Counted from the first letter of the stretch, positions 34,966-48,906 are shown. The stretch: 64,000 bases of DNA from an uncultured Chryseobacterium sp. (GCA_964488745.1 CAZAVP010000009.1:15729-79728), one strand, 5' to 3'. The notes: a model not told the origin generated them from the sequence alone. Program-made: numbers and translations.

Positions 34966-36237
34966 ATGTTAGAAATACAACGCATTCGCACAGAAAAAGA
35001 GGCAGTTATCGAAGGATTGAAGAAAAGACACTTTGATGCGACACCAATCGTAGAAGCACTTTTAACGAAAGACCAAGAATGGAGAGAAACCAAAACCGAA
35101 TTAGAATCCATTTCAGCGGAATTAAACCAAATTTCCAAATTGGTTGGCGAATTATTTCAACAAGGTAAAACTGCTGAAGCAAATGAAGCTAAAGAAAAAA
35201 CGGCTACTTTAAAAACACAGGAAACTGCGTTAAAAGATAAAGTAAGTGCATTAGATGCTGCTATCTTAGAATTGATGTATCAATTGCCAAACGTTCCAAA
35301 CGCGTTGGTTAAGGCTGGTAAAAGCGAGCAAGAAAACGAAATCATTGACGAAGTTGGCAGCAAACATATTTTTGAAGGCGAAGCTTTGCCACACTGGGAT
35401 ATTACCAAAAAATACGACCTCATCGATTTTGAATTAGGCGTTAAAATTACCGGTGCAGGATTCCCAGTTTACAAAGGAAAAGGTGCCAAATTACAACGAG
35501 CCTTGATTCAGTTTTTCTTGGATGAAGCGGATAAAGCAGGTTATGAAGAACACATGGTTCCACTTTTGGTTAACGAAGCGTCTGGAATTGGAACGGGACA
35601 ATTGCCTGATAAAGAAGGTCAAATGTACCATTGCGAAGTAGATGATTTGTATTTAATTCCAACTTCTGAAGTTCCATTGACCAACATTTACAGAGATGTA
35701 ATTCTTCCAAACGAAGATTTCTCGATTAAATTAACCGGTTTTACTTCTTGTTTTAGAAGAGAAGCAGGTTCTTACGGAAAAGATGTTCGCGGATTAAACC
35801 GTTTGCACCAATTTGAAAAGGTAGAAATCGTTCGCATCGAACATCCAAAAAATTCCGAAAAGGCCTTGGAGGAAATGGTAGATCACGTGCGCGGAATCCT
35901 ATCTAAATTGGGCTTACATTACCGAATTTTAAGATTGTGTGGTGGCGATACGGGATTTGCTTCTGCAATAACGTACGACTTTGAAGTATATTCCGCAGCA
36001 CAAGAAAGATGGTTGGAAGTTTCTTCCGTTTCTTTGTTCAACACCTTCCAAGCAAATCGCTTAAAACTGAGATTTAAAACAGAAGATAAGAAAACACAAT
36101 TAGCACATACTTTGAACGGCTCTGCTATGGCATTGCCAAGAATTATCGCTGCGATGTTGGAGAATTACCAAACAGATGAAGGCGTTGTGATTCCAGAGGT
36201 GTTGCATCCATATTTGAATTTTAAGATCATTCAATAA
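34966..36237 (+). CDS. serS: Serine--tRNA ligase
   Basis: N-terminal coiled-coil arm, FRREAGS, GLNRLHQFEKVE, TLNGSA. Confidence 0.95.
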   Translation: MLEIQRIRTEKEAVIEGLKKRHFDATPIVEALLTKDQEWRETKTELESISAELNQISKLVGELFQQGKTAEANEAKEKTATLKTQETALKDKVSALDAAILELMYQLPNVPNALVKAGKSEQENEIIDEVGSKHIFEGEALPHWDITKKYDLIDFELGVKITGAGFPVYKGKGAKLQRALIQFFLDEADKAGYEEHMVPLLVNEASGIGTGQLPDKEGQMYHCEVDDLYLIPTSEVPLTNIYRDVILPNEDFSIKLTGFTSCFRREAGSYGKDVRGLNRLHQFEKVEIVRIEHPKNSEKALEEMVDHVRGILSKLGLHYRILRLCGGDTGFASAITYDFEVYSAAQERWLEVSSVSLFNTFQANRLKLRFKTEDKKTQLAHTLNGSAMALPRIIAAMLENYQTDEGVVIPEVLHPYLNFKIIQ

Positions 36238-36270
36238 ATTAAATAAGCAGATCAAGAGTTTTTACAAAAG

Positions 36271-36301
36271 CCTAAAGAGTTTCGACTTTTTAGGTTTTTT
36301 T
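36271..36301 (+). terminator. Rho-independent terminator after serS
   Basis: Stem cctaaa/tttagg followed by T7. Confidence 0.6.
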
Positions 36302-36406
36302 GGTTTTGGGTGCAAACGAATATCAACAGATTTTCAAAATAAACTTCAATCAATTTATAAAATTGAAATCGAGATATTGAGAAATAAAGACTAATTTTAG
36401 TAGACT

Positions 36407-36577
36407 AGGGCAAACGCATTTAAAATTTTCTAAGTCTAAATTTTAGAAAAGACAATTTTATCAAGCGGTGGATTAATCCACCGCTTGATTGCAAACTGAG
36501 ATGAGTTGTTTGTGGCATGCGTTTTTGTTTAAAAACCATGACATAAACCAATTTTGAAGTTAAATGCGTTTGCCCTG
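36407..36577. mobile_element. 171-bp MITE, copy 1
   Basis: 17-bp terminal inverted repeats AGGGCAAACGCATTTAA. Flanking direct repeat TTTAGTAGACT at 36396-36406 and 36578-36588. Internal 26-bp perfect palindrome at 36462-36487. Second copy at 56606. Confidence 0.85.
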
Positions 36578-36660
36578 TTTAGTAGACTAATGCTTTTTGA
36601 ATTTGAAAAAATTATTGGCATTGACGTAAAGAAATTATTGAAAAACAATGAAGAGTAAGC

Positions 36661-37856
36661 ATGGAATTAGATAACGAATATAAAAATTGGCTAAGCGAGC
36701 TAAAACTCAAAATCCGTTCAGCTCAAATGAAGGCAGCGATTGCTGTCAACCAAGAGTTGATTCTCTTTTATTGGGATTTGGGCAACATGCTGTCTGATAA
36801 AATTAAAACCAGCAATTGGGGAGCTAAAGTGCTTGAAAATGTTTCTAAGGATTTGAAAGCTGAGTTTCCTCAAATGAAGGGTTTTTCTGTTACTAATTTA
36901 AAATATAGCAAACTTTTTTATGAGTACTTTCAAATTAGTCCCCAGCTTGGTGACCAATTAAATTCAATAAAAAATACAATTAGTCAACAAGCTGTTGACC
37001 AATTACAAGACACTGAACACCAAGAAAATATAAAAAGTCAACATGCTGTTGACCAAATAGAAAATGAGCAAACAATAAATCGTTCACAAGCCGTGAACCA
37101 AAATAGAAATTTCTCAATAATACAACAACTTGTTGCCCAAATTCCTTGGGGGTCATATTATTATAATAATTGCTAAGATTAAAGACACGAAAGAAGCTAT
37201 TTTCTACATCCAAAAAACCAAAGAAAACAATTGGAGTAGAGATGTGTTAAGTTTGCAAATAAAATCGAATCTTTACCAAAGACAAGGTACGTCCATAAAT
37301 AATTTCTCCACTACATTACCTGAGCCATTTTCGGATTTGGCCAAACAAACTTTAAAGGATCCTTATGTCTTTGATTTTCTACAACTATCAGAAGGTTACA
37401 AGGAAAGAGATATTGAAAAACAGCTAGTCAATCACATCAAAAAATTTCTACTAGAATTAGGCAAAGGATTTGCATTTGTGGGGCAACAATACCATCTTGA
37501 TGTTGCTGATAAAGACTACTACATCGATTTGCTTTTTTACCACGTCAAGCTTAAATGCTACGTAGTTATTGAGCTCAAAAAACACTGCTTTTATCCCTGA
37601 ATATGCTGGTAAATTGAACTTTTATTTGTCAGCTGTTGATAGTATTTTGAAAGAAATAGACGACAAACCTACGATTGGTATTTTGCTTTGCCGTGAAAAA
37701 AATAACATTGAAGCGGAATTTGCTTTACGAGACATCAACAAACCAATGGGCGTAAGCGAATTTGATTTAACCAACATGCTTCCCGATAATCTGAAATCTT
37801 CTTTACCTACCATTGAAGAGATCGAACAAAACCTTGCAAGTGATGAATTTGATTGA
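36661..37856 (+). pseudogene. PD-(D/E)XK nuclease, DUF1016/YhcG-like, disrupted by two +1 frameshifts
   Basis: Three consecutive ORFs in frames 1, 2 and 0 join into one YhcG-like protein (IPWGH..., ENNWSRDVL, KDPYVFDFL, YIDLLFYH, VVIELK..F.PEYAGKLNFYL). Breaks lie at the G5 run 37148-37152 and the A6 run 37577-37582. Confidence 0.8.
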
Positions 37857-38134
37857 ATAAGATGATACAATCGTAATCACTTAAAATTGAGATTTAAAAT
37901 GTCGATGAATTGACTGGAAATGTAGATGGATTTTATATATTTACATCCAACAATCAACAATAGCTATGAAACTATCGGGATTTGGACGATTGGAAGTGAA
38001 CGGTAAGCGATTGGAAAAGGATTTGTTGTTTATTTACAGAAGATTAACTAAAATAGATATAATGGATATTTACCCAATTGGGTAAAGCCAATTGTTGGGT
38101 GCAAGCTTAAAAAGACACCGATAAAGATTAAATT

Positions 38135-40723
38135 ATGACAAAAATTGAAAGAGGTTCAGACTGGAGAAAATGGGATTTACATTTTCATACACCTTCATCA
38201 TATGACTATGGTGACAAATCCATTACAAATCAAGAAATAATTGATACTTTATCGGCAAATCAAATTTCTGTGGTTGCAATTACAGACCACCATAAAATAG
38301 ACATTGAAAGAATTCAAGAGTTACAACGTCTCGGAAAAGAAAAAGACATATTGGTTCTTCCGGGTATTGAATTTTTGTCAGATGCAAGAGGAAAAGTACC
38401 AATTCATTTTATTGGTATATTCTCAGAAAATTGTAATCTCGAATACATTTGGGGACAACTCGAGAATACCACTAATATAAAAAAGATTAAGGGAGAAGGA
38501 AAAGAGCCAAATCAAGTGTACTGTGACTTAGAAGAAACAATTAAACTAGTTAAAAGTCTTGGAGGAATAACCACAATACACGCAGGAGATAAGACAAATA
38601 GCATTGAAAATATAACCCATTCATTACCGCACGGTGAGGCACAAAAGACCGAAATAGCTAATCAAATTGATATTTATGAATTGGGTAAAGTAGATGACAA
38701 AGATGGATATATCAATGTTGTATTCCCAGCAATAGGAAAGCATATTCCTATGATTATCTGTTCAGATAATCATAATATCAAGAAATACGTTTTAAAAGAA
38801 AATTGTTGGATAAAAGCTGATTGTTCATTTGAAGGACTCAAACAAGTAATTTATGAACCAAAACAAAGGGTTAGGATTCAAGCACTAAAACCTCACGAAA
38901 AGGCGGAATATCAAGTTATTGATTCGGTTCAAATATCACATAGTGATTTCTACAGTCAAAAAATTCATTTCAATCAAAACCTTAACTCCATAATTGGAGG
39001 TCGTTCAACTGGCAAGTCTGTGCTTTTAGGTGCAATTGCAAAGAAATTGAACTGTGATAAGGAAGTGAAATTCAATAATGAAGATTATACAAAATTCGTA
39101 AATGAAGTTGTCGGTAGCATTACCGTAACTTGGAAAGACGGAGTTATAAATAACGATAGAAATATTGAGTATTTTCCACAAAGTTATATGTACCGTCTTG
39201 CTCAAAACAAAAACAATGAACTAGACAAACTTATTGAAGAAATTGTAAGACAAGATAAAGCTAAAAATAATCTAATTGCAGATTACGAAACTTACAGTGC
39301 AGAGAACAATACGGACATAACCAATAAGCTAAATAAATTATTTCAGCTACAAGATGAATTAGTCAAAAAGAATGCGCAATTAAAGGAAAAAGGTGATGAA
39401 AAAGGAATCCGAAGTGAAATTGATAAACTTGAAAGAGAATCAAAGGAATTAAAAACAAAAATCAATATTTCTGATTCTGAACTACAAGAATATAACAATT
39501 TAAAAAGTGAAACCGATACGCTTGTAAAACTTAATGAAAATTTACAGTCACAAATTTTAAAGCTGCAATCGTTAAAGTCAAAATTTTTAATCAACAAAGA
39601 TTTAGAGTTTGATATAGTTGCTTTAAGCGATTCTAATAAAGACGAGGTAAGAGCAAAGTATGATGATTTGAAACTGCGTTTTGAAAAGGAATGGCAAGAC
39701 GCCATAGAAAAAATATCGCAGAAAAATTCAGATGAAGTAAAGGCAAACAATCAAAAAATTGAGTCAATTCAAAGCAGTCCAGTTTATATAAAGGGTATAG
39801 AGACATTTAAAAATAATAGACAGTACAAGGAACTTGAAGAAAAATTAAAGATTCAAAAAGACAAATTGGCTGACATAACTCTGATTAAAAAAGAAAATGA
39901 AGAGTTACGACTACAAATAACAAGCTTTGTTTCTTTAATCAAAGAGGCGCATAGGAACTATTTCAAGAAAATCGAAGAAATGAAAAGTTCTCTTAATATT
40001 GCTAAAGACAAACTTGAAATAAAAGCTTCTGCTCGATTAAATTCTCAAGGATATAAGGATTTATTAAATTTTGGAATTAACCAACAAAGCTATCAAGGTC
40101 AATCAATTGTTAATGAAAAAATTGAAACTATCGAAGATTTTTTCACATCAACTCACGCTTTGTTTGACAAGTTGCTTCTGAATAATATTACACTAAAAGG
40201 AGGTAATACTAACATTAGCTTTGCACAAAAAGTGCTTTCAACTAATTTCTTTGAAATTACCTATGATATTATTTATGAAGATACGTTCAAAAAGATGTCC
40301 GAAGGTAAAAAAGCGTTTGTTGTCCTAATGCTACTTTTAGACTTTAGTAACAAAGACTGCCCGATATTGATTGACCAGCCAGAAGATGATTTGGATAACC
40401 GAGCAATCTATAAAGACCTAGTTAAATACCTAAAGAACAAAAAGAAAGAAAGACAAATCATTCTTGTGACACATAACCCAAACATTGTTGTAGGAGCTGA
40501 TTCGGAATTAGTAATTGTTGCTAACCAAAATGGAATTGACACTCCAAATATTGGCGGGGCTAAATTTCAATATACTTCAGGTAGTTTAGAAAATACCAAA
40601 GAGCTTGACAACTCAATTAAGGTAACTCTCAACTCACAAGGAATTAAAGAGCACGTTTGTGAAATACTCGAAGGAGGAAATGAAGCATTTAAACAAAGGG
40701 AGAAAAAATATGACATCAAATAG
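38135..40723 (+). CDS. PHP phosphoesterase domain fused to a Rad50/SbcC-like coiled-coil ABC ATPase (candidate defence protein)
   Basis: PHP ligand pattern: DLHFHTP (14-20), TDHH (50-53), GIEF, IHA, CSDNH. ATPase: Walker A GGRSTGKS (288-295), coiled coil ~360-640, SEGKK (722-726), ILIDQPEDDLD (744-754), VTHN (778-781). Confidence 0.85.
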   Translation: MTKIERGSDWRKWDLHFHTPSSYDYGDKSITNQEIIDTLSANQISVVAITDHHKIDIERIQELQRLGKEKDILVLPGIEFLSDARGKVPIHFIGIFSENCNLEYIWGQLENTTNIKKIKGEGKEPNQVYCDLEETIKLVKSLGGITTIHAGDKTNSIENITHSLPHGEAQKTEIANQIDIYELGKVDDKDGYINVVFPAIGKHIPMIICSDNHNIKKYVLKENCWIKADCSFEGLKQVIYEPKQRVRIQALKPHEKAEYQVIDSVQISHSDFYSQKIHFNQNLNSIIGGRSTGKSVLLGAIAKKLNCDKEVKFNNEDYTKFVNEVVGSITVTWKDGVINNDRNIEYFPQSYMYRLAQNKNNELDKLIEEIVRQDKAKNNLIADYETYSAENNTDITNKLNKLFQLQDELVKKNAQLKEKGDEKGIRSEIDKLERESKELKTKINISDSELQEYNNLKSETDTLVKLNENLQSQILKLQSLKSKFLINKDLEFDIVALSDSNKDEVRAKYDDLKLRFEKEWQDAIEKISQKNSDEVKANNQKIESIQSSPVYIKGIETFKNNRQYKELEEKLKIQKDKLADITLIKKENEELRLQITSFVSLIKEAHRNYFKKIEEMKSSLNIAKDKLEIKASARLNSQGYKDLLNFGINQQSYQGQSIVNEKIETIEDFFTSTHALFDKLLLNNITLKGGNTNISFAQKVLSTNFFEITYDIIYEDTFKKMSEGKKAFVVLMLLLDFSNKDCPILIDQPEDDLDNRAIYKDLVKYLKNKKKERQIILVTHNPNIVVGADSELVIVANQNGIDTPNIGGAKFQYTSGSLENTKELDNSIKVTLNSQGIKEHVCEILEGGNEAFKQREKKYDIK

Positions 40724-40885
40724 AAAGCCAGCACCCAACAGCACCTACCCAAAAGTGGCGGTTCAGTGGTTAAATCAAGCTTTGTGCTTCTATCAAAGTT
40801 TGTGCTTGACTGACAGTGAAGTGCTTCAAAATCGCCACCTTCGGGTAGCTGCAAAACGTTATACGCAACAACGAACACTCAACCT

Positions 40886-41377
40886 ATGATTAAAATAATA
40901 TTGGTTTTTCTTTTAACAATAATTCAATCAATAGCTTTTACCCAAATTGAGATTGACGGAAATTGGTATGTATATGAAAAGGACAATCCAGCGGAAATAA
41001 ATAATTATATTAAAGACTCTCTTACTCATGGATACAGTCAAATTGACTTTGCTTTAGGTTTCCCGAAAAAGTTCAATTTATCACGAGACAAAGAAACTTA
41101 TATGATACCCGAGGACGAATTGAAATGCACGGAACAACTATTATTCAAATCTAATGAAGTACAAAACATGACTGAATGTACTGGAATCAAAGATCAAAGC
41201 TATTGGATGAACGGTGGGAAAAATGGTGTTTATGAATGGGTCAATAAAAAAACCATTCGAATCTCATATATTGTTGGACTTGGAGAATTCGTTTGTGTTT
41301 ATAAGGTAAAAGAAAAGAAAAACATATTAACTTTTATAATTCAAGGGAACGTTGAATTCACTAAACTTGAAGAATAA
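40886..41377 (+). CDS. Hypothetical exported protein
   Basis: 163 aa with a signal peptide. The mature N-terminus has a GNW motif (lipocalin-like start). Confidence 0.5.
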   Translation: MIKIILVFLLTIIQSIAFTQIEIDGNWYVYEKDNPAEINNYIKDSLTHGYSQIDFALGFPKKFNLSRDKETYMIPEDELKCTEQLLFKSNEVQNMTECTGIKDQSYWMNGGKNGVYEWVNKKTIRISYIVGLGEFVCVYKVKEKKNILTFIIQGNVEFTKLEE

Positions 41378-41471
41378 ATGCGTATAATAACACTTCGTTT
41401 TCGACATTTTAAAATCAGAGATTTAAAAACAGCCATAAACTACGTTCGTTACCTGCAAATTTAACTAAACA

Positions 41472-41840
41472 ATGAGAAAATTTATCTTACTTTTAATTTT
41501 GACAACTTTTGTTCTAACGTCTTGTGGTCAACGAAAAAATGAAATAACACTTCCACAACCGCACAAGAATTTTATTGGAAAATGGAGTTCTAATGAATTA
41601 ACAATATACATAAAGCCAGATAGCATTATTGTATGGCATAATCGTAGAAATATGAAAGTCATAGAAGTCCCGAGTCAAAAAACAACAGAATTTAAGGTCA
41701 TTAAAAACAATGATTTTGAATATGAAATCCTTGAAGAAAGAGAAAACAAAGGAGTTACACTCAAACACCCTTTTACATACAATAAAGAAGACAATTCTAT
41801 AAAGTATGTTGACAAAGTAGTTTTTAAAGATGAAAATTAA
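41472..41840 (+). CDS. Hypothetical lipoprotein
   Basis: 122 aa with lipobox LTSC and a GKW motif near the mature N-terminus. Confidence 0.5.
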   Translation: MRKFILLLILTTFVLTSCGQRKNEITLPQPHKNFIGKWSSNELTIYIKPDSIIVWHNRRNMKVIEVPSQKTTEFKVIKNNDFEYEILEERENKGVTLKHPFTYNKEDNSIKYVDKVVFKDEN

Positions 41841-42110
41841 ATGAGCTATCCGAAAGAAGTTTTAAGAGAAGCATTGAAATTTTTTTAGTTGAAAGACTTG
41901 AGAAGTTGACTTTAAATTTAACGAAAAAGACCTAAAATTTACACGAGATTTTGGAGAAATTGGGAAGAGATTTACGATTATATCGTTAAACATCTCAAAA
42001 AAGGTAAATGTTAAAGACAGAAGTGAGTGGATATTCTCTGAAACGGGAAAACATTCTTGTAAATTTGAACTGCAAATAGACAACACGGGGTTTTAAATGA
42101 TGAAAAAATA

Positions 42111-42165
42111 ACCACAGAGACACTAAGAACATAAAGAAAATCAGTGCCTTCTGTGTCTTTATGGT
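42111..42165 (+). repeat. Degenerate hairpin module upstream of the GxxExxY gene
   Basis: Arms accacagagacac (42111-42123) and gtgtctttatggt (42153-42165) with 2 mismatches, followed by GAAAAAAA. Confidence 0.6.
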
Positions 42166-42182
42166 GAAAAAAACAGAAAGAT

Positions 42183-42560
42183 ATGACTGAAAACGAAATT
42201 TCAAAAATAGTAATTGGAGCTGCCATTGAAGTTCATAAACAATTAGGTCCAGGCTTATTGGAAAGTAGTTATGAAGTTTGCTTGGCATACGAATTAAGGC
42301 AACAAGGATTAAGCATTCAGACCCAAGTTGCTTTGCCAGTTGTTTATAAAGGAGTGAAACTAGAAGCAGGTTATAGAATAGATATTCTTGTAGAAAATAA
42401 AATAATTATTGAAATTAAAGCTGTTGAAGCTCTTGCAGATATTCATACAGCACAACTTTTAACTTACTTGAAACTAAAAGATTTAAAACTCGGATTATTG
42501 ATAAACTTCAATAGTGTAAGGGTAATTGATGGTGTAAAACGTATTGTGAATAATTTATAA
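42183..42560 (+). CDS. GxxExxY protein (PD-(D/E)XK-like fold family)
   Basis: [10 protein letters not shown] carries the GxxExxY signature. [17 protein letters not shown] is the D..ExK-like core. 125 aa. Confidence 0.85.
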
Positions 42561-42607
42561 CCGCAGAGTCGCAAAGAAAACCTCTGCGTTCTCTGCGACT
42601 CTGCGGT
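42560..42607 (+). repeat. Perfect 14-bp-stem hairpin module downstream of the GxxExxY gene
   Basis: Arms accgcagagtcgca (42560-42573) and tgcgactctgcggt (42594-42607), followed by GAAAAAAA. It overlaps the stop codon. Confidence 0.75.
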
Positions 42608-42666
42608 GAAAAAAAGAAATATGGAGCTAAAATCTATTGTCAAAAATCACCCACACGTTTTACAAC

Positions 42667-43784: not shown

Positions 43785-44750
43785 TCAAGGCATTAATTCT
43801 TTCAATTCCATCGTTGGTGCACCTTTCTGACCAAAATCATCATAATAATCCAAAAAGTGCAATTTATAAACCTTCCCGTTCACCGTTTTAACAATGAAAC
43901 TCTTGGTTGGATCCACCGCGTAAACACTCGTATCAAAATTATATGCTTTCCAATCAAAACCAATTACGTTGATGTTCGTTCCAAAATTGGAAGCAAGGTA
44001 ATCTGTGTAATCAATGTCTTTAAATTCCTTGTTGGTGGCTACCACGCGAACCATATTTCGATTAGATACAACACCTGCAACAATGTAAGGCATACCGTCT
44101 GGATACACATGGGTGTAAGAAGTAAAAGAGATGTCCCATTTGGATTTGTCTGGCTCTACAGACACAGCCTGATTGTTTATCAATGAAAAGTACACAAATG
44201 AAGCGCTTGTATTCTTAGAAATGACCGCTGTGGTGTAATTACTGCCATTCAAATCAGCAAATTCAAGTTGATATTCCGTTGAATTAACGGCATTTATTTT
44301 TACCTTTTTCCGACCAAACGGAACACCTAAAACACTCATTCCCAAATCAACTACATAAACTTTTTCGTTCAAATTCCAATCTGCAAAAGCGGTGGAATCT
44401 AGGTTTCCTGAAGGAGAATCATAAAGCCAAACAGCACCCTCGGTAGAAGTAATATCGGATAAGGAAGTTGCATTGGTAAGGGCAACTTTTACAAGTTTTG
44501 AACCGTTCAAAATGATTCGATAACCAGCTTCACTTGCTTCAAAAGCCAAGTCCCAAATAGCGCGATCGTTGTGACTAACAATTATTTGATCTTCCAAGCT
44601 GTAAAACAATTGGTTGCGATAATCCGAACCGGTTGAAACAGTTATTAAACTCGCATCGCTTACAGCCATTTTTGGTCTGGGGATTTCAGCTTTTTCACAG
44701 GCGAAATTCAGGGATACTAATAATAAAATCAAGTAGTTAATTTTTTTCAT
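43785..44750 (-). CDS. hmuY: HmuY-family heme-binding lipoprotein
   Basis: Lipobox NFAC. Sits immediately downstream of a TonB-dependent receptor in a heme locus. Shares motif blocks with the 417-aa protein at 50827. Confidence 0.6.
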   Translation of the reverse strand: MKKINYLILLLVSLNFACEKAEIPRPKMAVSDASLITVSTGSDYRNQLFYSLEDQIIVSHNDRAIWDLAFEASEAGYRIILNGSKLVKVALTNATSLSDITSTEGAVWLYDSPSGNLDSTAFADWNLNEKVYVVDLGMSVLGVPFGRKKVKINAVNSTEYQLEFADLNGSNYTTAVISKNTSASFVYFSLINNQAVSVEPDKSKWDISFTSYTHVYPDGMPYIVAGVVSNRNMVRVVATNKEFKDIDYTDYLASNFGTNINVIGFDWKAYNFDTSVYAVDPTKSFIVKTVNGKVYKLHFLDYYDDFGQKGAPTMELKELMP

Positions 44751-44754
44751 TTTT

Positions 44755-46983
44755 TCACTTTGAATTGTTTAATAAAAATTGAAGTTTCACATAACCACTT
44801 CTTCCCCAAGAAATAGGTGCACTTCCGTTTCCTGATGAATGCGCACCCGTGGTCATTGAGCTCGTCACATTGGTCACATTGAGCAAGTTCTTACCTCCTA
44901 CGGAAACGTTGATTCTGTTCTTCCAAAAAGCGCGACTTACGTTGAAATCTAACATGTTGTAATCATCCATAAAGAATCGAATGGATTCAACATCAGTTGT
45001 TAAATAACTTTCTGTTTTGCCAGTGTATTTGTAATATACGTTGAATTTAATGCCTGATTTTTTCCAGTCGTAACTTGCTAAAAAATTGAATTCTGGAGAA
45101 TAATAAAAACGTCCATTGCCCAGACTGCTTTTCACACCAGTGTATGAAAAACCAGGTTTCAATTCCAAGTTTTTATAATTCCAACTCAACTGAGTCCGAA
45201 TACCAATTGATTCAAATTGATCGATGTTAAAATAAGTGTATTGAATTCCCGTAGCATCTTGACTAAGAGAGATTTTATCCTTTACTTTTTGATAAAAGGA
45301 TGATATTTCCAAGTGTGTTTTTGATTTTCCGATTTTCAATTGTTGGGTGTACCACGCCTGAAAATGATTCGATCTTTCAGCAACCAACTGGTCATTTCCA
45401 GTGACATTGTGGTTGACATCCACAAAATTCATGTGCAATTCTTTAATCGACGGAGACCGAAATCCTTGCGCATAACTACCTCTAAACACTGCTTTTTTTA
45501 TCCCATATTTTAAATTGAGAGAAGGCGTTAGTGAAGTTCCATAGCTCGAATTTAAACCCAAACGGGCGGCAGGTTTAACAACCAATTGAGAAGTAATGTG
45601 CCAATCTAAAGATCCAAAAGCGGCATAATCACCGATTGTTTTTTTTTGATTTTCAATTCTTTTTCCTTTCGCAATTTCGTAATTCAAATCATATCCTACT
45701 TCATAATTTAATTTTTCAGATTTGGAAGTTTGAGAATAGGTTGCCCGAGACATAAATACACGGAAATCGGAAGTGTCATGATCGGAATCATTCAGCGTTA
45801 ATTGCTGTGTTAAATCTGTTAAATCTTTTAAATAGGTGTTTTTAATTCGCTGGTAATAATTGTGCGCTAAAACTCCTTGAATTTTAAATCGAGGTTTAAT
45901 TTGGGTTTGAAAACTCACTCCTTGATCGTTTCGATTGGTGAAATAAAAATCATCAAAAGCTTGAATAAAATAAGGCGCTCGAGGCAATCCCTTGTTGGTG
46001 ATTTTCTCTTTAAAAAAGTGGACGGATGGCGAAATGGTGGTATTCTTGAATTGAAAAGTGTAATCCAACCCTAGGGTAAATTGTTCTTTGGGTTTCCAAG
46101 TTTGAAAACGACCTGAATCTGCCACTTTTGATTTTGGAAGCACCGTCAAAGGTTCTCCAGTTGACCAACCATCAAAATAATTTCGTCCTCCATGAATGGA
46201 AAATTTGTGTTTATTAAAATTAACCGTAGCACGACCATCTAAGTTATAATTCCCAACCGTTTCGTAATAAGAAGTAAGTTGAAATTCTTGTCCACTTTTC
46301 AGATTTTTTTTGCTGATTAAATTGATGGTTCCTGCAATGGCATGACTTCCATAAGCCACACTCAAAGGGCCTTCAATCATCTCAATGCGTTGGATGTTTG
46401 CCAAATTAATTTGACTTAAATCGATTTCTCCATTCATTCTTCCAATAATTGGAACTCCGTCCAATAAAATCAATACACCTTCGCCACTTACGCCTTGTAT
46501 GGAAAGTCCACTGCCGAGAATTTGGTCTTGGTTAATTCGAATATTTAATTCATTTTGGAGTACATCTCTCAAACTTACAGCTCCTTTTGCATCGATCGTT
46601 TCTCGGTCAATTACCCGTATTTTTTGAATTGCATTTTGAGTGGTTGTCGCTCGGATTTGACCTGTAATTACCAATTCCTCAAACTCTTTTATGACAGGAG
46701 AAAGATAAATACTTCGCGGCAAATTGGTATTCATTGAGTCAGAATAATTTTCGAAACCTGTCGCTTGTACGCTTATGAATACGGAATTAGAAGTAGGTGA
46801 AAATGTGAAACCCCCCCGATTATTGGTCGTGGTGGTTGTTTTACCATGAAGAAAAGTAATTTCGATTTTGGCAAAAGGAATTGGCTCGTTGTTCTCTATA
46901 GACGATACTTGAACTTCAATTTGTGAAAACACAAACGGAGGTAAAATAAAACAAATTATAAAAAATAATCGAGAGATTTTCAT
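44755..46983 (-). CDS. TonB-dependent heme/hemin receptor
   Basis: Signal peptide, CarboxypepD_reg-like N-terminus, plug (IEMIEGPLSVAYGSHAIAG), barrel. Context lies between the HemS-like and HmuY-like genes. Start at MKISRLFF. Confidence 0.8.
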   Translation of the reverse strand: MKISRLFFIICFILPPFVFSQIEVQVSSIENNEPIPFAKIEITFLHGKTTTTTNNRGGFTFSPTSNSVFISVQATGFENYSDSMNTNLPRSIYLSPVIKEFEELVITGQIRATTTQNAIQKIRVIDRETIDAKGAVSLRDVLQNELNIRINQDQILGSGLSIQGVSGEGVLILLDGVPIIGRMNGEIDLSQINLANIQRIEMIEGPLSVAYGSHAIAGTINLISKKNLKSGQEFQLTSYYETVGNYNLDGRATVNFNKHKFSIHGGRNYFDGWSTGEPLTVLPKSKVADSGRFQTWKPKEQFTLGLDYTFQFKNTTISPSVHFFKEKITNKGLPRAPYFIQAFDDFYFTNRNDQGVSFQTQIKPRFKIQGVLAHNYYQRIKNTYLKDLTDLTQQLTLNDSDHDTSDFRVFMSRATYSQTSKSEKLNYEVGYDLNYEIAKGKRIENQKKTIGDYAAFGSLDWHITSQLVVKPAARLGLNSSYGTSLTPSLNLKYGIKKAVFRGSYAQGFRSPSIKELHMNFVDVNHNVTGNDQLVAERSNHFQAWYTQQLKIGKSKTHLEISSFYQKVKDKISLSQDATGIQYTYFNIDQFESIGIRTQLSWNYKNLELKPGFSYTGVKSSLGNGRFYYSPEFNFLASYDWKKSGIKFNVYYKYTGKTESYLTTDVESIRFFMDDYNMLDFNVSRAFWKNRINVSVGGKNLLNVTNVTSSMTTGAHSSGNGSAPISWGRSGYVKLQFLLNNSK

Positions 46984-47004
46984 AATAAAAGACATGCTTG
47001 TATT

Positions 47005-48057
47005 TTAAACAGCTGCTGTTTTTTGACTGATTTCACGAACGATTTCTCTCCATGATTCCAATTCAGGAATACCTGGTTTACGAGCACCAAAAAGAGAGCA
47101 AATCAATTCATTTTTAGCATTAAACAATTCCAAAGAGGTCACAATTCCATCGGTTGTTGGTTTGCGTACAATCCATGTTTGTGCAATTGCGTTTTCTCTT
47201 AAGTGCAAATTGAATTTTGGATCCAAAATGTTAATCCATTCTTTAAAATCAACAACGTTGGCGATTTCTCCCGTATGAATTTGAATCATTCCATCGTTAC
47301 CCACAAAAACCATGATGTTGACTTGTTTAGCAACTGCCAAGTTCAATATTTTTCTCAAACCATCGTTGTCAATTGATTCTGCTAAGTCAGAAGGTGCCAA
47401 ACGCAAAGCTTGAGTTCTCGTTACCTTATACTTTCTCATCATTCCGAAAAAGTCATGCGTGTCTTTCAAGTTTTTCCAATCTGTTTGAAATGCACTTTGA
47501 TCAATTTCGTTGTCGGGAAGTTCAACTTCCTGTGGTTTAACAGTTGATTCAATTTCTTGAATTTTACTTTGATCTTCATTCGTGAAGCGTGCAACCAATT
47601 CGTGGTACTTTTCGATGTTACTTGTTGGTTCCATGTAAATTTTGTGTACTGCTTCGCCACGGTTATTGAAAAACTGCAAGCTGTAACGTGTTTTGTCCTT
47701 ATTTGTTTCTGCAACAGCAAAGGCTGAACTCCAAGTTCTCAAGAAGATTCTTAAATCAATGTCGGCTCCAACAAATAAGCTTCCGTGTGGATTTGAAAAA
47801 TCGCCATTTAAATAGACTCCTTTTCTTTCATGAACAGCATCGTCGTTTCTAGATAATGCCATTACGTAGCCTAATTCTTCTACGCTTAAAAGGATGTCTG
47901 AGAATTCTGGGCGCAACCGAGTAACGTGTTCTCCGCATCCTAAAACGAGGACTTCCACTTCACTTACACCTAATTTTTTAGCAATGTCACGAATGCGTAA
48001 CGTTCCGTTTTCTGCTTTTACCTCGTCATAACGAGATTTTAAATTTGTATTGGACAT
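47005..48057 (-). CDS. Hemin-degrading/transport factor (HemS/ChuS/PhuS family)
   Basis: 350 aa with a two-repeat architecture. N-terminal LRIRDIAKKLGVSEVEVL is typical of the family. Adjacent to a heme ABC transporter. Confidence 0.75.
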   Translation of the reverse strand: MSNTNLKSRYDEVKAENGTLRIRDIAKKLGVSEVEVLVLGCGEHVTRLRPEFSDILLSVEELGYVMALSRNDDAVHERKGVYLNGDFSNPHGSLFVGADIDLRIFLRTWSSAFAVAETNKDKTRYSLQFFNNRGEAVHKIYMEPTSNIEKYHELVARFTNEDQSKIQEIESTVKPQEVELPDNEIDQSAFQTDWKNLKDTHDFFGMMRKYKVTRTQALRLAPSDLAESIDNDGLRKILNLAVAKQVNIMVFVGNDGMIQIHTGEIANVVDFKEWINILDPKFNLHLRENAIAQTWIVRKPTTDGIVTSLELFNAKNELICSLFGARKPGIPELESWREIVREISQKTAAV

Positions 48058-48075
48058 ATATTTTATTTATTTTGG

Positions 48076-48906
48076 TTATTGATTACTAAATTCTTCGCTC
48101 ATCTGAACGTGTTTTACTTCATTCTTTTTTGGTTTCATGGAAAAGAAAACTTCATTTCCAACTTGATTTTTCTGAATTCCAATGTCAAAAATGGCTTCTA
48201 AAACTTCAGGATCCAACGCCAATTCTTTTGTGTTATCAGCCACCACGTGACCATTTTTTACAAGGATGATTCGATCGGCAAAGGAATATGCCATGTTGAT
48301 GTCATGCAAAACAGCGATTACAATTCCCCCTTGATGGATTATTTTTTGTTGTGCCAACTCCATCAGCGAATACTGATAATGCATGTCTAAGTTATTCAAT
48401 GGCTCATCCAGGAAAAGTATTTTTTCAGGATGTTTGGAACGCTGTTCAGTTTCTAATTGAATGATTGCTCTTGCAAATTGAACCCGCTGTTGTTCTCCGC
48501 CGGATAAAGTTTGATAACTTTGATGTCGCTTTGCAAATAATTTTAATTCAATCAACATTTCATCTGTAATTCGCTGTTGTTCTTCTCGAGATTCCTGATA
48601 TGGATACCTTCCCATTTCCACGATTTCTTGAACCGTAAACGATCCAAACACATTGCTTTGCTGGTGAAGATAAGCTCGGTTTTTAGCCAAGAGATCAGTT
48701 TTCCAATTTTTCAAATCTTGATTGTGATAGCTTACGTTACCAACCGTTGGATCTAAGTAACCCGCTAACAATTGAATCAAGGTGCTTTTTCCAGCGCCAT
48801 TTGGACCTAAAATCACCACCAACTCGGAACGTTTAAATTCCATTGAAAAAGGATTTAAAAGCATTCTTCCATCAATTCCAAAACCTACATTTTTAACTGA
48901 AATCAT
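48076..48906 (-). CDS. Heme ABC transporter ATP-binding protein
   Basis: GPNGAGKSTL, LSGGEQQRV, ILFLDEPLNNLD. The true start MISVKNV at 48906 overlaps the permease stop as ATGA. Confidence 0.9.
   Translation of the reverse strand: MISVKNVGFGIDGRMLLNPFSMEFKRSELVVILGPNGAGKSTLIQLLAGYLDPTVGNVSYHNQDLKNWKTDLLAKNRAYLHQQSNVFGSFTVQEIVEMGRYPYQESREEQQRITDEMLIELKLFAKRHQSYQTLSGGEQQRVQFARAIIQLETEQRSKHPEKILFLDEPLNNLDMHYQYSLMELAQQKIIHQGGIVIAVLHDINMAYSFADRIILVKNGHVVADNTKELALDPEVLEAIFDIGIQKNQVGNEVFFSMKPKKNEVKHVQMSEEFSNQ

What the first reader, a model, noticed from the sequence alone, without database searches (positions are those of the whole stretch)
38135..40723. 862-aa fusion of a PHP phosphoesterase to a Rad50/SbcC-like coiled-coil ABC ATPase: a single-chain nuclease-ATPase and candidate defence system
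Seen in sequence: one intact 862-codon ORF.
- PHP (polymerase/histidinol-phosphatase) metal-ligand pattern: residues 14-20 DLHFHTP (HxH), 50-53 TDHH, 77-80 GIEF, 148-150 IHA, 209-213 CSDNH.
- ATPase head: residues 288-295 GGRSTGKS (Walker A), 722-726 SEGKK (signature-like), 744-754 ILIDQPEDDLD (Walker B/D-loop), 778-781 VTHN (H-loop).
- Between the two head halves, residues ~360-640 are a K/E/L/Q-rich helical stretch. It contains no Cys, so there is no Rad50-type CxxC zinc hook.

Established knowledge: an ABC head split by a long coiled coil is the SMC/Rad50/SbcC/RecN architecture. SbcCD and Mre11-Rad50 pair that ATPase with a separate calcineurin-fold nuclease. PHP domains can act as metal-dependent nucleases or exonucleases.

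Inference: here PHP would take the Mre11/SbcD role inside a single polypeptide. The context argues for defence against foreign DNA rather than housekeeping repair. That context is a MITE, a decayed PD-(D/E)XK nuclease gene, a GxxExxY gene, orphan genes and no housekeeping partner.

From memory only, a one-gene PHP+ATPase system called Ppl was reported in a 2020 defence-system screen. Whether this protein belongs to it or is a distinct family is not established here, and the mechanism would be unknown either way.
Basis: partly seen in the sequence, partly recalled or inferred. Interest (0 to 1): 0.8.

Follow-up and report, generated by a model that had tools for sequence, protein, structure and literature searches.

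The report
Integron-cassette PHP nuclease–ABC ATPase (TrlF family)
The 862-codon gene is real and encodes a one-chain metal-dependent nuclease fused to a Rad50/SMC-like ATPase. It belongs to the already named but untested TrlF family, a full-length relative of the anti-phage protein Ppl, and here it travels as a single-gene integron-type cassette.

Summary
There is one intact 862-aa ORF at 38135-40723, and every quoted motif sits at the stated residue.

- **Family:** NCBIfam files it as a TrlF family AAA-like ATPase (568 bits, cut-off 350). It is not Ppl (133 bits, cut-off 1000).
- **Relation to Ppl:** a profile comparison aligns it end to end with E. coli Ppl (99.96% probability). TrlF and Ppl are sister families with one architecture.
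- **Structure:** an AlphaFold model (pLDDT 90) matches RNase AM and Pol III PHP domains. It also matches SMC, MukB, JetC and Rad50 heads with coiled coils.
- **Conservation:** the main catalytic residues of both enzymes are conserved in 94-100% of 90 diverse homologues.
- **Family context:** the family is large, patchy and mobile. Members sit inside type I restriction operons, on hundreds of plasmids and in a P2-like phage.
- **New point:** the gene is an integron-type cassette (38095-40858) with a 132-nt attC-like site (40733-40864). Copies 95-98.5% identical sit in unrelated loci.
- **Cassette test:** the G|TT and R''/R' pairing rule holds in 7 of 10 cassettes in other Bacteroidota. No integrase lies in the window.

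Defence is likely but untested. A Ppl-like mechanism is an inference.

The parts
38135..40723 (+). TrlF-family gene, 862 aa: PHP nuclease fused to a coiled-coil ABC ATPase
   Evidence: The ORF is intact. NCBIfam NF045780 scores 568 bits against a cut-off of 350, matching residues 6-859 to model positions 1-943 of 944. Codon differences from copies elsewhere are mostly synonymous: 93 synonymous to 20 nonsynonymous, and 26 to 7.
38153..38884 (+). PHP metal-dependent phosphoesterase domain (about residues 7-250)
   Evidence: Pfam PHP scores 21 bits, below its gathering score. PADLOC Ppl matches residues 7-311. Foldseek matches RNase AM (7ug9, 9etk), BAD_1165 (3o0f) and the Pol III alpha PHP domain (4gx8, 2hnh). 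The main metal ligands D14, H16, H18, D51, E79, D211 and H213 are conserved in 94-100% of 90 homologues.
38918..39205 (+). ABC head, N-terminal half (about residues 262-357): Walker A GGRSTGKS, Q349
   Evidence: Pfam AAA_29 and SMC_N hits start here. K294 and Q349 are invariant. The model shows strands and helices typical of an ABC N-lobe.
39209..39994 (+). Antiparallel coiled-coil insertion (about residues 359-620); apex near 482-498; no Cys, so no zinc hook
   Evidence: The AF2 model has long helices at 375-481 and 499-620 at high confidence. Foldseek matches SMC, MukB, JetC and Rad50 heads with coiled coils. No Cys in residues 360-640.
39998..40534 (+). ABC head, C-terminal half (about residues 622-800): signature SEGKK, Walker B/D-loop DQPEDDLD, H-loop H780
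   Evidence: Hits to AAA_21, SMC_N, AriA and SMC. D747, E750, D754 and H780 are invariant.
40535..40720 (+). Conserved C-terminal extension (residues 801-862; H840, C842, E846-G-G, R855)
   Evidence: Conserved in 90 homologues. It aligns with the C-terminus of E. coli Ppl, including the EGG-x-EAF motif.
38094..38100 (+). GTTGGGT: left cassette boundary, the R' core of a lost or decayed upstream attC. Crossover point is G|TT.
   Evidence: Homology with copies in unrelated loci starts here. The heptamer is the exact reverse complement of the R'' heptamer ACCCAAC of the downstream attC. A faint covariance-model hit at 38057-38100 ends exactly here.
38095..40858 (+). Integron-type gene cassette, 2764 bp: 40-nt leader, trlF, attC up to its G
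   Evidence: It is 98.5% identical to L090/L092 and 95% identical to L088, with unrelated flanks. The cassette in L090 has the same length of 2764 bp.
40733..40864 (+). attC-like recombination site, 132 nt: an imperfect palindrome running from ACCCAAC to GTTATAC
   Evidence: The covariance model scores it 149 bits. RNAalifold predicts 35 pairs, 19 with compensatory changes. On 27 copies, 79.5% of cells are paired against 54.6% in shuffles, and the covariation score is 0.586 against 0.06-0.10 for slid controls.

Best explanation
The gene encodes a TrlF-family protein. One polypeptide holds a catalytically intact PHP-type metal-dependent nuclease or phosphoesterase. This is joined to an SMC/Rad50-like ABC ATPase whose two head halves are separated by a coiled coil of about 260 residues.

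It is carried on a 2.76-kb integron-type gene cassette (38095-40858) that ends in a 132-nt attC-like hairpin. The cassette has landed on its own downstream of serS, in a low-GC islet.

The most likely role is defence against phage or other invading DNA, acting as a single-gene system.

The mechanism is inferred from the full-length homologue Ppl. In that model the ABC head and coiled coil bind nucleotide and sense DNA ends or structures. Nucleotide binding keeps the PHP nuclease off. When infection depletes NTPs or creates free 3' ends, the PHP domain degrades nucleic acid and stops the infection.

Shown here: the family membership, the fold, conservation of both active sites, purifying selection, the cassette anatomy, and the mobile and defence-linked contexts of the family.

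Inferred: the defence role of this copy, the substrate, and the trigger.
For: **Identity**
- NF045780 TrlF scores 568 bits against a cut-off of 350, over the full length.
- RefSeq names the >=90%-identical cluster member WP_324068965.1 (P0269) and more distant homologues TrlF family.

**Fold**
- The AF2 model has pLDDT 89.8 and pTM 0.74.
- Foldseek matches PHP enzymes and SMC, MukB, JetC, Rad50, LmuB and AriA.

**Activity**
- The main PHP metal ligands (94-100%) and all ABC motif residues are conserved across 90 homologues.
- Synonymous changes far outnumber nonsynonymous ones between copies.

**Homology to Ppl**
- hhalign gives 99.96% probability, E=8e-39, with 757 columns spanning both proteins.
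- BLASTP gives 25% identity in the PHP part and 31% in the C-lobe.
- Ppl is reported to be an NTP-inhibited 3'-5' ssDNA exonuclease that senses 3'-OH ends (PMC12904381; Xu et al., Mol Cell 2026, cited in PMC13434339).

**Defence-type context of the family**
- hsdS, hsdM or hsdR flank TrlF in 9 of about 77 loci, with overlapping reading frames in L073.
- Type IIG restriction-modification genes are adjacent in 6 loci.
- On a Klebsiella plasmid the gene lies next to an Abi protein, a possible Gabija-like ATP-binding/UvrD-helicase pair and ccdAB. On a Lactococcus plasmid it lies next to a type III R-M system.
- A family member lies between gpA and portal gpQ of a P2-like Yersinia phage.
- A 95%-identical copy (L088) lies between a TIR-STING gene and a type III R-M system.

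**Cassette**
- Searches support the cassette anatomy.
- Integron cassettes are known stores of defence genes (10.1101/2024.07.02.601719; PMC12614218).
Against: - No experiment exists for any TrlF protein. In the only study of the type locus, no mutation in trlF was recovered, and the phenotype mapped to trlG (PMC7554251).
- The protein fails the Ppl cut-off (133 against 1000 bits) and shares only about 25-31% identity in the alignable parts. Trigger and substrate may therefore differ.
- The nearest solved PHP domains by structure are RNase AM and TrpH-type enzymes, which act on RNA or nucleotides, not DNA.
- The immediate neighbours in this window are a pseudogene and orphan ORFs, not recognised defence genes.
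- The cassette has only a 40-nt leader and there is no integron promoter or integrase in the window. This copy may be poorly expressed.
- Pfam PHP and SMC_N hits are below their gathering scores.
Confidence: 0.6

Rival explanations
1. It is a housekeeping DNA-repair enzyme, a one-chain analogue of SbcCD or Mre11-Rad50 that processes hairpins or broken ends of the cell's own chromosome.
For: The fold is shared with Rad50, SMC and MukB heads and their coiled coils. PHP domains proofread in Pol III and PolX (established knowledge). Some depositors annotate relatives as 'DNA repair ATPase'.
Against: - Distribution is patchy across many phyla.
- Copies 95-98.5% identical sit in three unrelated loci.
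- The gene sits on an attC-flanked cassette.
- An estimated several hundred plasmids (extrapolated from an evenly spaced sample of the 1119 matching records) and a few phages carry the family.
- Neighbours are restriction genes, not repair operons.
Confidence: 0.05
2. It is the TrlF component of a TRL-type growth-control module, as in Photorhabdus. There it works only together with TrlG (Schlafen AlbA_2 plus HATPase_c_4) and TrlR to arrest growth under stress.
For: The family takes its name from that operon (PMC7554251). TrlG-like genes lie next to TrlF in L039, L046 and L070, with a deaminase variant in L047. They also lie next to TrlF on some plasmids, annotated as 'RNA-binding domain-containing protein'.
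Against: - No TrlG-like ORF exists anywhere in the 64-kb window.
- Only 4 of 136 immediate neighbours in 75 loci carry HATPase_c_4.
- The mobile unit is the single gene.
- In Photorhabdus the phenotype needed trlG, and no trlF mutants were recovered (PMC7554251).
- That temperature arrest could itself be autoimmunity of a defence module.
Confidence: 0.1
3. It acts on RNA or nucleotides rather than DNA. Examples would be a 5'-3' exoribonuclease or a pAp or signalling-nucleotide phosphatase, gated by the ATPase, in defence or in counter-defence.
For: The best structural matches for the PHP part are RNase AM (7ug9, TM 0.64; 9etk) and TrpH-like phosphoesterases (3o0f, 2yb1). There are weak NCBIfam hits to RNase RNM and to 3',5'-bisphosphate phosphatase.
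Against: The full-length homologue Ppl is reported as a DNA exonuclease (PMC12904381). The SMC/Rad50-type head and coiled coil are DNA-handling modules in all solved relatives. The NCBIfam hits are far below their cut-offs.
Confidence: 0.15
4. It is a selfish or competition module: an anti-plasmid or anti-MGE nuclease, or an addiction-like gene that stabilises the cassette array or plasmid that carries it, rather than an anti-phage system.
For: Most matching plasmids are conjugative (827 of 1119). SMC-like defence systems such as Wadjet target plasmids (PMC12904381). Large integron arrays are known to hold stabilising modules (PMC11023631).
Against: There is no antitoxin-like partner in the cassette. 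The sister family Ppl protects against phages (PMC11482910, PMC12904381). The gene's presence in a P2-like phage hotspot fits inter-virus competition or defence.
Confidence: 0.1

Closest known systems
TrlF family AAA-like ATPase (NCBIfam NF045780; type member in the Photorhabdus laumondii temperature restriction locus trlR-trlF-trlG)
   Same: It passes the family cut-off over the full length. The domain order is the same. RefSeq uses this name for a >=90%-identical cluster member (P0269) and for more distant sequences.
   Different: There is no trlG or trlR partner here. The gene is a solitary attC-flanked cassette in a Flavobacteriia-type genome, not a three-gene operon next to polA. The family itself has no demonstrated function (PMC7554251).
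Ppl, the single-gene anti-phage protein of E. coli (NCBIfam NF042955; PADLOC PDLC02208)
   Same: - Same architecture and near-equal length (862 against 891 aa).
- Aligned end to end (hhalign 99.96%).
- Shared N-terminal GSxWxKxDxHxHTPxSxDY motif.
- Shared Walker A, DQPEDDLD and C-terminal EGGxxAF motifs.
- Both are single-gene and plasmid-borne.
   Different: It scores 133 bits against a cut-off of 1000, so it is not a Ppl equivalog. Identity is about 25-31% in the heads, and the coiled coil cannot be aligned by BLAST. Ppl's trigger (NTP depletion plus 3'-OH ends) is untested for TrlF.
Rad50/SbcC-Mre11/SbcD and SMC-type defence ATPases (JetC of Wadjet, LmuB of Lamassu)
   Same: ABC head split by an antiparallel coiled coil. 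These are the top Foldseek matches.
   Different: - The nuclease is a fused PHP domain, not a separate calcineurin-fold (Mre11/SbcD), Toprim (JetD) or Cap4-type (LmuA) partner.
- There is no CxxC zinc hook.
- The coiled coil is much shorter.
- Pfam SMC_N and PADLOC LmuB hits are weak.
PrrC and RloC: ABC-ATPase-nuclease fusions linked to type I restriction operons (from my own knowledge; named as ABC-ATPase defence proteins in 10.1101/2024.01.29.577857)
   Same: One chain combines an ABC ATPase with a nuclease. RloC also has a Rad50-like coiled-coil insertion. TrlF relatives are embedded between hsdS and hsdR much as prrC is.
   Different: In those proteins the nuclease is a C-terminal anticodon nuclease acting on tRNA. 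Here it is an N-terminal PHP domain. No sequence relationship was detected.
Integron gene cassettes that carry phage-defence genes (Kieffer et al. and Darracq et al., Science 2025, as cited in 10.64898/2026.03.17.712381)
   Same: One ORF is followed by an imperfect-palindrome attC with ..AAC and GTT.. cores, and exchange occurs at G|TT. Arrays are all in one orientation. Neighbouring cassettes hold conflict-type genes.
   Different: - No integron integrase or attI was found within the window or within 10 kb of any related locus.
- The hosts are Bacteroidota and Chlorobi, where integrons are reported as rare (PMC9024848).
- The cassette is large at 2.8 kb.
- The spacer between the R and L boxes is asymmetric (1 nt against 5 nt), and no clear extrahelical bases are seen.

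Membership tests
TrlF family AAA-like ATPase (NF045780) | Whole-protein score at or above the curated cut-off of 350 bits, with full-length coverage | tested here: met
   568.2 bits; residues 6-859 match model positions 1-943 of 944.
TrlF family AAA-like ATPase (NF045780) | Operon with TrlG (AlbA_2 plus HATPase_c_4) and TrlR, as in the type locus. This is a context feature, not part of the protein model. | tested here: not met
   No TrlG-like ORF in the 64-kb window. Neighbours have other or no domains. Only 4 of 136 immediate neighbours across 75 loci are TrlG-like.
Ppl anti-phage protein (NF042955 / PADLOC Ppl) | Whole-protein score at or above the curated cut-off of 1000 bits | tested here: not met
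   132.6 bits. PADLOC Ppl gives 95 bits, with its best stretch on residues 7-311.
Ppl anti-phage protein (NF042955 / PADLOC Ppl) | PHP domain plus split ABC NTPase in one chain, collinear with Ppl | tested here: met
   hhalign of the 90-sequence TrlF profile against E. coli Ppl WP_015059139.1 gives probability 99.96%. Profile columns 11-860 align to Ppl residues 3-886.
Ppl anti-phage protein (NF042955 / PADLOC Ppl) | Protection against phage; NTP-inhibited 3'-5' ssDNA exonuclease activity | not testable with these tools
   Needs expression and biochemistry. Known for Ppl only from the literature (PMC12904381, PMC11482910).
Spaf_1101 family AAA-like ATPase (NF045781) | Score at or above 475 bits | tested here: not met
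   160 bits.
PHP (polymerase/histidinol phosphatase) superfamily | Pfam PF02811 at or above its gathering score of 26.4 bits | tested here: not met
   21.1 bits, E=4e-4, covering only residues 14-108.
PHP (polymerase/histidinol phosphatase) superfamily | PHP fold with the HxH, D/H, E, H and DxH metal ligands | tested here: met
   Foldseek matches 7ug9, 9etk, 3o0f, 4gx8 and 2hnh with E between 1e-7 and 1e-5. D14, H16, H18, D51, E79, D211 and H213 are 94-100% conserved. H52, H91 and H149 are 73-76% conserved.
SMC/Rad50/SbcC-type ABC ATPases | Walker A, Q-loop, signature, Walker B/D-loop and H-loop in a head split by an antiparallel coiled coil | tested here: met
   The motif residues are invariant. 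The model shows helices at 375-481 and 499-620 between the two head halves. The Foldseek top hit is an SMC head with coiled coil, 5xei, E=4e-10.
SMC/Rad50/SbcC-type ABC ATPases | Rad50/SbcC CxxC zinc hook, or an SMC hinge, at the coiled-coil apex | tested here: not met
   No Cys in residues 360-640. The apex is a short loop near residues 482-498.
SMC/Rad50/SbcC-type ABC ATPases | Pfam SMC_N at or above its gathering score of 40 bits | tested here: not met
   19.6 bits.
Integron gene cassette | attC site: an imperfect palindrome of 57-141 nt with a 5' ...AAC (R'') core and a 3' GTT... (R') core, and a conserved structure despite variable sequence | tested here: met
   The site is 132 nt, running from ACCCAAC to GTTATAC. 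AAC(A) and (C)GTT are near-invariant in 27 copies. All 20 basal-stem pairs show compensatory changes. The covariation score is 0.586 against 0.18 for shuffles and 0.06-0.10 for slid controls.
Integron gene cassette | Cassette boundaries at G|TT of the R' cores | tested here: met
   Identity with unrelated loci runs from 38094 (GTTGGGT) to 40861 (…CGTTA) and stops there.
Integron gene cassette | The R'' of a cassette's attC is complementary to the G plus the first six bases of the same cassette | tested here: met
   The window gives 7/7. Seven of 10 consecutive attC pairs in other loci give 7/7, while an attC's own R''/R' pair mostly gives 3-4/7.
Integron gene cassette | Integron integrase (IntI) and attI next to the array | tested here: not met
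   - No tyrosine recombinase was found in the 64-kb window or in the loci that hold arrays.
- The best candidate, L032 20892-22013, scores 191 bits on TIGR02249 against a cut-off of 265.
- Many arrays lie at contig ends, so absence is not proven there.
Integron gene cassette | Extrahelical bases on the recombined strand; detection by IntegronFinder's attC model | tested here: inconclusive
   The consensus fold shows three 1x1 mismatches and a 1-nt against 5-nt spacer, but no clear bulged bases. IntegronFinder is not available here. Rfam has no match to the site.

The most novel reading that the evidence does not exclude
TrlF may be an untested single-gene immune family distinct from Ppl, spread in Bacteroidota and Chlorobi as cargo of integron-type cassettes that share a characteristic attC of about 132 nt. 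These cassette arrays hold other conflict genes and occur in classes where integrons are regarded as nearly absent. If so, they would form an overlooked defence 'biobank' served by an integrase that is still unidentified or lies far away. TrlF's embedding in type I and type IIG restriction operons would point to cooperation with restriction, for example finishing off DNA ends made by cleavage.
Probability: 0.4. Interest if true: 0.65.

Novelty: new member of a known kind. Interest (0 to 1): 0.45.

Why it matters
The protein is an ordinary member of a named family. That family is large, with more than 1200 clusters at 50% identity at E<=1e-30. It is widespread on conjugative plasmids of Klebsiella and E. 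coli and on dairy Lactococcus plasmids, and it has never been tested.

Showing that TrlF is a full-length sister of the now-characterised Ppl gives it a concrete, testable mechanism.

The cassette finding adds two things:
- It explains how a 2.8-kb single gene turns up 95-98.5% identical in unrelated loci.
- It points to integron-type cassette arrays with defence-like cargo across Bacteroidota. Surveys of complete genomes reported almost none in that phylum.

If confirmed, this would widen the known range of integron-like gene capture and give a simple way to mine new defence genes in these bacteria.

Tried and rejected
- **Single-sequence AlphaFold.** It gave a useless model (pLDDT 35). The run with a 90-sequence alignment was used instead.
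- **Sequence search of the PDB.** It found only the C-terminal ABC motif region of AriA and SMC, and no Ppl structure.
- **Literature.** Only one paper mentions TrlF. No paper was found on 'Ppl-like' or 'PHP-ATPase' systems. The Ppl mechanism paper is not held.
- **An obligatory partner gene.** Clustering the neighbours in about 77 loci found no universal partner. TrlG-like genes are rare.
- **MITE or REP element.** The downstream palindrome was first read this way. That reading was rejected for three reasons:
  - Only one copy exists in the window.
  - All copies have one orientation next to ORFs.
  - They obey the attC R''/R' cassette rule.
- **More attC sites around the neighbouring ORFs.** None was found with filters off. 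There is only a faint remnant at 38057-38100, and a GTATAATAAC string after orf163 that does not fold like an attC.
- **An integron integrase.** Iterated HMM searches and NCBIfam found none in the window or the array loci.
- **Rfam.** No family covers the attC region.
- **A 25-nt repeat shared by the serS 3' end and the spacer before trlF.** It was examined as a possible att duplication. The similarity does not extend beyond the repeat.


Full report
**1. The observation**

The window has one ORF at 38135-40723 on the + strand, 862 codons long, with an ATG start and no internal stop. It also confirmed that residues 360-640 lack Cys and are rich in K, E, L and Q.

The motifs are not accidental. 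In an alignment of 90 homologues down to 31% identity:
- The PHP ligands D14, E79 and D211 are invariant.
- H16, H18, D51 and H213 are 94-99% conserved.
- K294 (Walker A), Q349 (Q-loop), D747 and E750 (Walker B), D754 (D-loop) and H780 (H-loop) are invariant.

Between this copy and two near-identical copies elsewhere, synonymous codon changes outnumber nonsynonymous ones, 93 to 20 and 26 to 7. The gene is therefore under purifying selection.

**2. What the protein is**

Family models give a clear answer:
- NCBIfam places it in NF045780, 'TrlF family AAA-like ATPase', with 568 bits against a cut-off of 350 and end-to-end coverage.
- It fails the sister models Spaf_1101 (160 against 475) and Ppl (133 against 1000).
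- PADLOC's best hit is Ppl at 95 bits, with its best stretch on residues 7-311.
- Pfam sees PHP, SMC_N, AAA_21 and AAA_29, all below their gathering scores.

RefSeq already uses the TrlF name for a member of the >=90%-identity cluster (WP_324068965.1 = P0269, Flavobacterium sp.) and for homologues in Balneola, Flavobacterium, Myroides and Pedobacter.

The family is large. An exhaustive HMMER search of 1.84 billion cluster representatives found 1215 at E<=1e-30 and 4483 at E<=1e-10.

The name comes from the Photorhabdus temperature restriction locus trlR-trlF-trlG. There the growth-arrest phenotype mapped to trlG, and no trlF mutation was recovered. TrlF therefore has no demonstrated function (PMC7554251). 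No other paper on it was found.

**3. Structure**

A single-sequence prediction failed. With a 90-sequence alignment, AlphaFold2 gave pLDDT 89.8 and pTM 0.74. The model has these parts:
- A beta/alpha PHP domain at about residues 9-250.
- An ABC N-lobe at about 262-357.
- Long helices at 375-481 and 499-620 that form an antiparallel coiled coil, with its apex near 482-498.
- An ABC C-lobe at about 622-800.
- A conserved C-terminal extension.

Foldseek against the PDB matched the ATPase part to:
- an SMC head with coiled coil (5xei, E=4e-10)
- MukB
- JetC of Wadjet
- Rad50
- LmuB
- AriA

It matched the PHP part to:
- RNase AM (7ug9, 9etk)
- BAD_1165 (3o0f)
- the Pol III alpha PHP domain (4gx8, 2hnh)

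There is no zinc hook.

**4. Relation to Ppl**

A Ppl gene annotated by PGAP on E. coli plasmid pGUE-NDM was fetched.
- BLASTP aligns the PHP region plus Walker A (25% identity, E=3e-18) and the C-lobe plus C-terminus (31%, E=3e-16).
- The TrlF profile aligns with Ppl over 757 columns, from residue 3 to residue 886 of 891, at 99.96% probability.

TrlF, Ppl and Spaf_1101 are therefore sister families with one architecture.

A 2026 review describes Ppl as a single-gene 3'-5' ssDNA exonuclease. NTPs bound to both its PHP and NTPase domains inhibit it. It is activated by nucleotide depletion and by 3'-OH ends made by phage homing endonucleases (PMC12904381). The primary reference is Xu et al., Mol Cell 2026, listed in PMC13434339. 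A phage counter-defence gene against Ppl has also been reported (PMC11482910).

This is the basis of the mechanism I propose for TrlF. It is an inference from homology.

**5. Genomic context of the family**

A scan of one genome per species returned 303 loci. This is a lower bound, because only two peptide patterns were used. The loci come from the following groups, a patchy spread:
- Bacteroidota
- Bacillota
- Pseudomonadota
- Spirochaetota
- Acidobacteriota
- Bdellovibrionota
- candidate phyla

*Chromosomal neighbours.* Neighbours within 6 kb in about 77 loci were clustered and the clusters scanned against Pfam.
- Type I hsdS, hsdM and hsdR lie around TrlF in 9 loci.
- In L073 the order is hsdS, trlF, hsdR, with a 4-nt overlap between trlF and hsdR.
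- Type IIG Eco57I-like enzymes are adjacent in 6 loci.
- TrlG-like proteins are adjacent in only 3-4 loci.
- Among 136 immediate neighbours, the commonest families are Methylase_S (7), N6_Mtase (5), HATPase_c_4 (4) and HSDR_N (3), followed by SWI2_SNF2 (3), GmrSD_N (2) and Eco57I (2).
- A control set 6.5 kb or more away held fewer such genes, though still some (Abi_2, Mrr_cat, nSTAND3).

*Plasmids.* The protein matches 1119 plasmid records, 827 of them conjugative. In an evenly spaced sample of 60 records, about 60% are annotated TrlF and about 25% Ppl.
- On Klebsiella pKP30086-2 the gene lies between an IS5 and an Abi protein, near an ATP-binding/UvrD-helicase gene pair that may be Gabija-like, and ccdAB.
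- On a Lactococcus plasmid it lies next to a type III restriction-modification system.

*Phages.*
- A family member (465 bits) lies between gpA and the portal gene gpQ of a P2-like Yersinia phage. From my own knowledge, this is the position of the P2 tin/old defence hotspot.
- A split homologue lies next to the integrase of a Vibrio prophage.

**6. The gene is a mobile cassette**

Proteins more than 90% identical to this one occur in unrelated places:
- In a Flavobacterium MAG, between a TIR-STING gene and a type III R-M system (L088).
- In other metagenomes, between a PKD/CHU_C protein and a GyrI-like gene (L090-L092).

DNA identity with these loci (98.5% and 95%) covers only window 38094-40861. 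That is the gene plus 41 nt upstream and 138 nt downstream.

The downstream part is a 132-nt imperfect palindrome. The same element is 92% identical right after trlF in Algoriphagus (L022), although that gene is only 70% identical. Further copies lie about 40 nt upstream of trlF in L090, L022 and a Chlorobiaceae MAG.

Every copy starts with ....AAC and ends with GTT...., the R'' and R' cores of integron attC sites.
- RNAalifold on six copies predicts 35 pairs, 19 of them with compensatory changes.
- A covariance model built from the six copies found 35 matches at E<=1 in 84 sources. All but the weakest few are full-length, on the strand of trlF, and placed just before or just after ORFs.
- Several matches form arrays: L036 has four, and L044 and L006 have three each.
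- On 27 copies, all 20 basal-stem pairs covary. The covariation score is 0.586, against 0.18 in shuffles and 0.06-0.10 when the partners are slid. One caveat is that this alignment was fitted to the model.

**7. A specific test of the integron model**

Integron recombination cuts between G and TT of the R' core. The last six bases of an R' therefore belong to the next cassette, and they should pair with the R'' of that cassette's own attC.

In the loci with consecutive sites, R' of the upstream site equals the reverse complement of R'' of the downstream site at 7/7 positions in 7 of 10 pairs. A site's own R'' and R' mostly share only the 3-4 positions fixed by AAC and GTT. The three failures have long or odd intervals and may hide an undetected site.

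In the window, GTTGGGT at 38094-38100 is the exact complement of ACCCAAC at 40733-40739. The cassette length of 2764 bp equals that in L090.

I therefore read 38095-40858 as an integron-type gene cassette.

Several limits remain:
- Only one attC is present in the window, plus a faint remnant ending at 38100.
- No tyrosine recombinase is encoded in the 64 kb, or within 10 kb of the arrays I could see. Many of those arrays sit at contig ends.
- No clear extrahelical bases are visible.

Solitary cassettes are known to arise by integrase-mediated insertion at non-classical genomic sites (Loot et al. 2024, listed in PMC11023631).

Two points from the literature bear on this:
- Integron cassettes are now recognised as stores of phage-defence genes (10.1101/2024.07.02.601719; PMC12614218).
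- IntegronFinder 2 reported, for Bacteroidetes, only integrases without cassettes in its first survey and later one complete integron in Salinibacter, besides Chlorobi and Ignavibacteriae (PMC9024848).

Cassette arrays in Flavobacteriia, Cytophagia, Bacteroidia, Sphingobacteriia and Saprospiria may therefore be under-reported. I could not test whether standard tools already detect them.

Other cassettes in these arrays encode:
- a STAND-like ATPase
- a UvrD-like helicase
- DUF1848
- a 2CompART-2CompARG pair

In L027 a type IIG enzyme and trlF share one 6.8-kb cassette.

**8. Local setting**

The cassette lies in a low-GC stretch (0.30-0.33, against about 0.36-0.39 in the flanks) from about 36.0 to 42.5 kb. 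This stretch sits between serS and an SDR gene.

Its neighbours are:
- a DUF1016/YhcG nuclease gene broken by two frameshifts
- two ORFs without a Pfam match (both start with hydrophobic, signal-like N-termini)
- a PDDEXK_3 gene

None of these is shared with the other loci that hold the cassette. The cassette leader is 40 nt, and no integron promoter is present, so expression of this copy is uncertain.

**9. Verdict**

The protein is a member of the named TrlF family and a full-length sister of Ppl. It is not a new fusion.

A defence role is likely, given the family-wide context and the cassette carriage. It remains untested. A Ppl-like mechanism, an NTP-gated exonuclease, is the best available model.

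The added finding is that the gene is an attC-flanked, integron-type cassette, and that such cassettes recur across Bacteroidota.

Noticed in passing
L006, L022, L027, L028, L036, L044, L058 and other loci (coordinates): attC-like sites of about 131-133 nt form same-strand arrays around ORFs. The genomes come from Flavobacteriia, Cytophagia, Bacteroidia, Sphingobacteriia, Saprospiria and Chlorobi. No integrase was visible within 10 kb, and many arrays sit at contig ends.
   Followed up: partly
L027 5904-12856; L023 6455-12862; L004: A type IIG (DUF7149-DUF7814-Eco57I) restriction-modification gene lies directly upstream of trlF. In L027 the two genes share one 6.8-kb cassette bounded by matching R'/R'' cores.
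   Followed up: partly
L073 8774-15948; also L052, L057, L047, L050, L060, L074, L024, L015: trlF is embedded in or next to type I restriction operons. In L073 it lies between hsdS and hsdR, with overlapping stop and start codons, much as prrC does in EcoprrI.
   Followed up: partly
window 36661-37856: A DUF1016/YhcG PD-(D/E)XK nuclease gene is split into three pieces in three frames by two frameshifts. Intact relatives lie near trlF in L047, L069 and L072.
   Followed up: partly
window 36926-37062: Three copies of a 38-nt unit, spaced 45-54 nt apart, lie inside the first DUF1016 fragment. Each unit contains a GTCAACA..TGTTGAC palindrome. They also score as terminator-like hairpins on the minus strand.
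   Followed up: no
window 36407-36576: Perfect 17-nt inverted repeats (AGGGCAAACGCATTTAA / TTAAATGCGTTTGCCCT) lie 136 nt apart between serS and the DUF1016 gene. There is a weak sub-threshold Rfam TD-1 hit here.
   Followed up: no
window 36055-36079 and 37875-37899 (weaker third copy at 41412-41428): A 25-nt direct repeat, AATCRCTTAAAAYTGAGATTTAAAA (23/25 identical), occurs once inside the 3' end of serS and once just after the DUF1016 pseudogene. It may be an insertion scar. The similarity does not extend beyond the repeat.
   Followed up: partly
window 42150-42173, 42554-42615: The PDDEXK_3 (GxxExxY) gene is flanked by similar 24-nt motifs ending in GGTGAAAAAAA. It is followed by a 25-nt hairpin that is 88% complementary. 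This may be a small mobile unit or a terminator.
   Followed up: no
window 36000-42500: A low-GC islet (0.30-0.33, against about 0.36-0.39 in the flanks) lies between serS and an SDR gene. It holds only accessory or orphan genes.
   Followed up: partly
window 43785-49185: A haem-uptake cluster lies on the minus strand. It comprises an HmuY-like protein, a 746-aa ORF read by eye as a TonB-dependent receptor (not scanned), a ChuX/HemS haem-degrading protein and an ORF read by eye as an ABC ATPase (not scanned). Only HmuY and ChuX/HemS were checked against Pfam.
   Followed up: no
L085 4992-7610 (Yersinia phage vB_YenM_42.18); L086 1343-3959 (Vibrio prophage PE001): A TrlF-family gene lies between gpA and the portal gene of a P2-like phage. 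A split copy lies next to the integrase of a Vinavirales prophage. Depositors annotated them as 'chromosome partition protein' and as hypothetical proteins.
   Followed up: partly
L002 10001-12595 (Balneola vulgaris): A 67%-identical trlF is inserted alone after nuoH, in the middle of the NADH dehydrogenase gene cluster.
   Followed up: no
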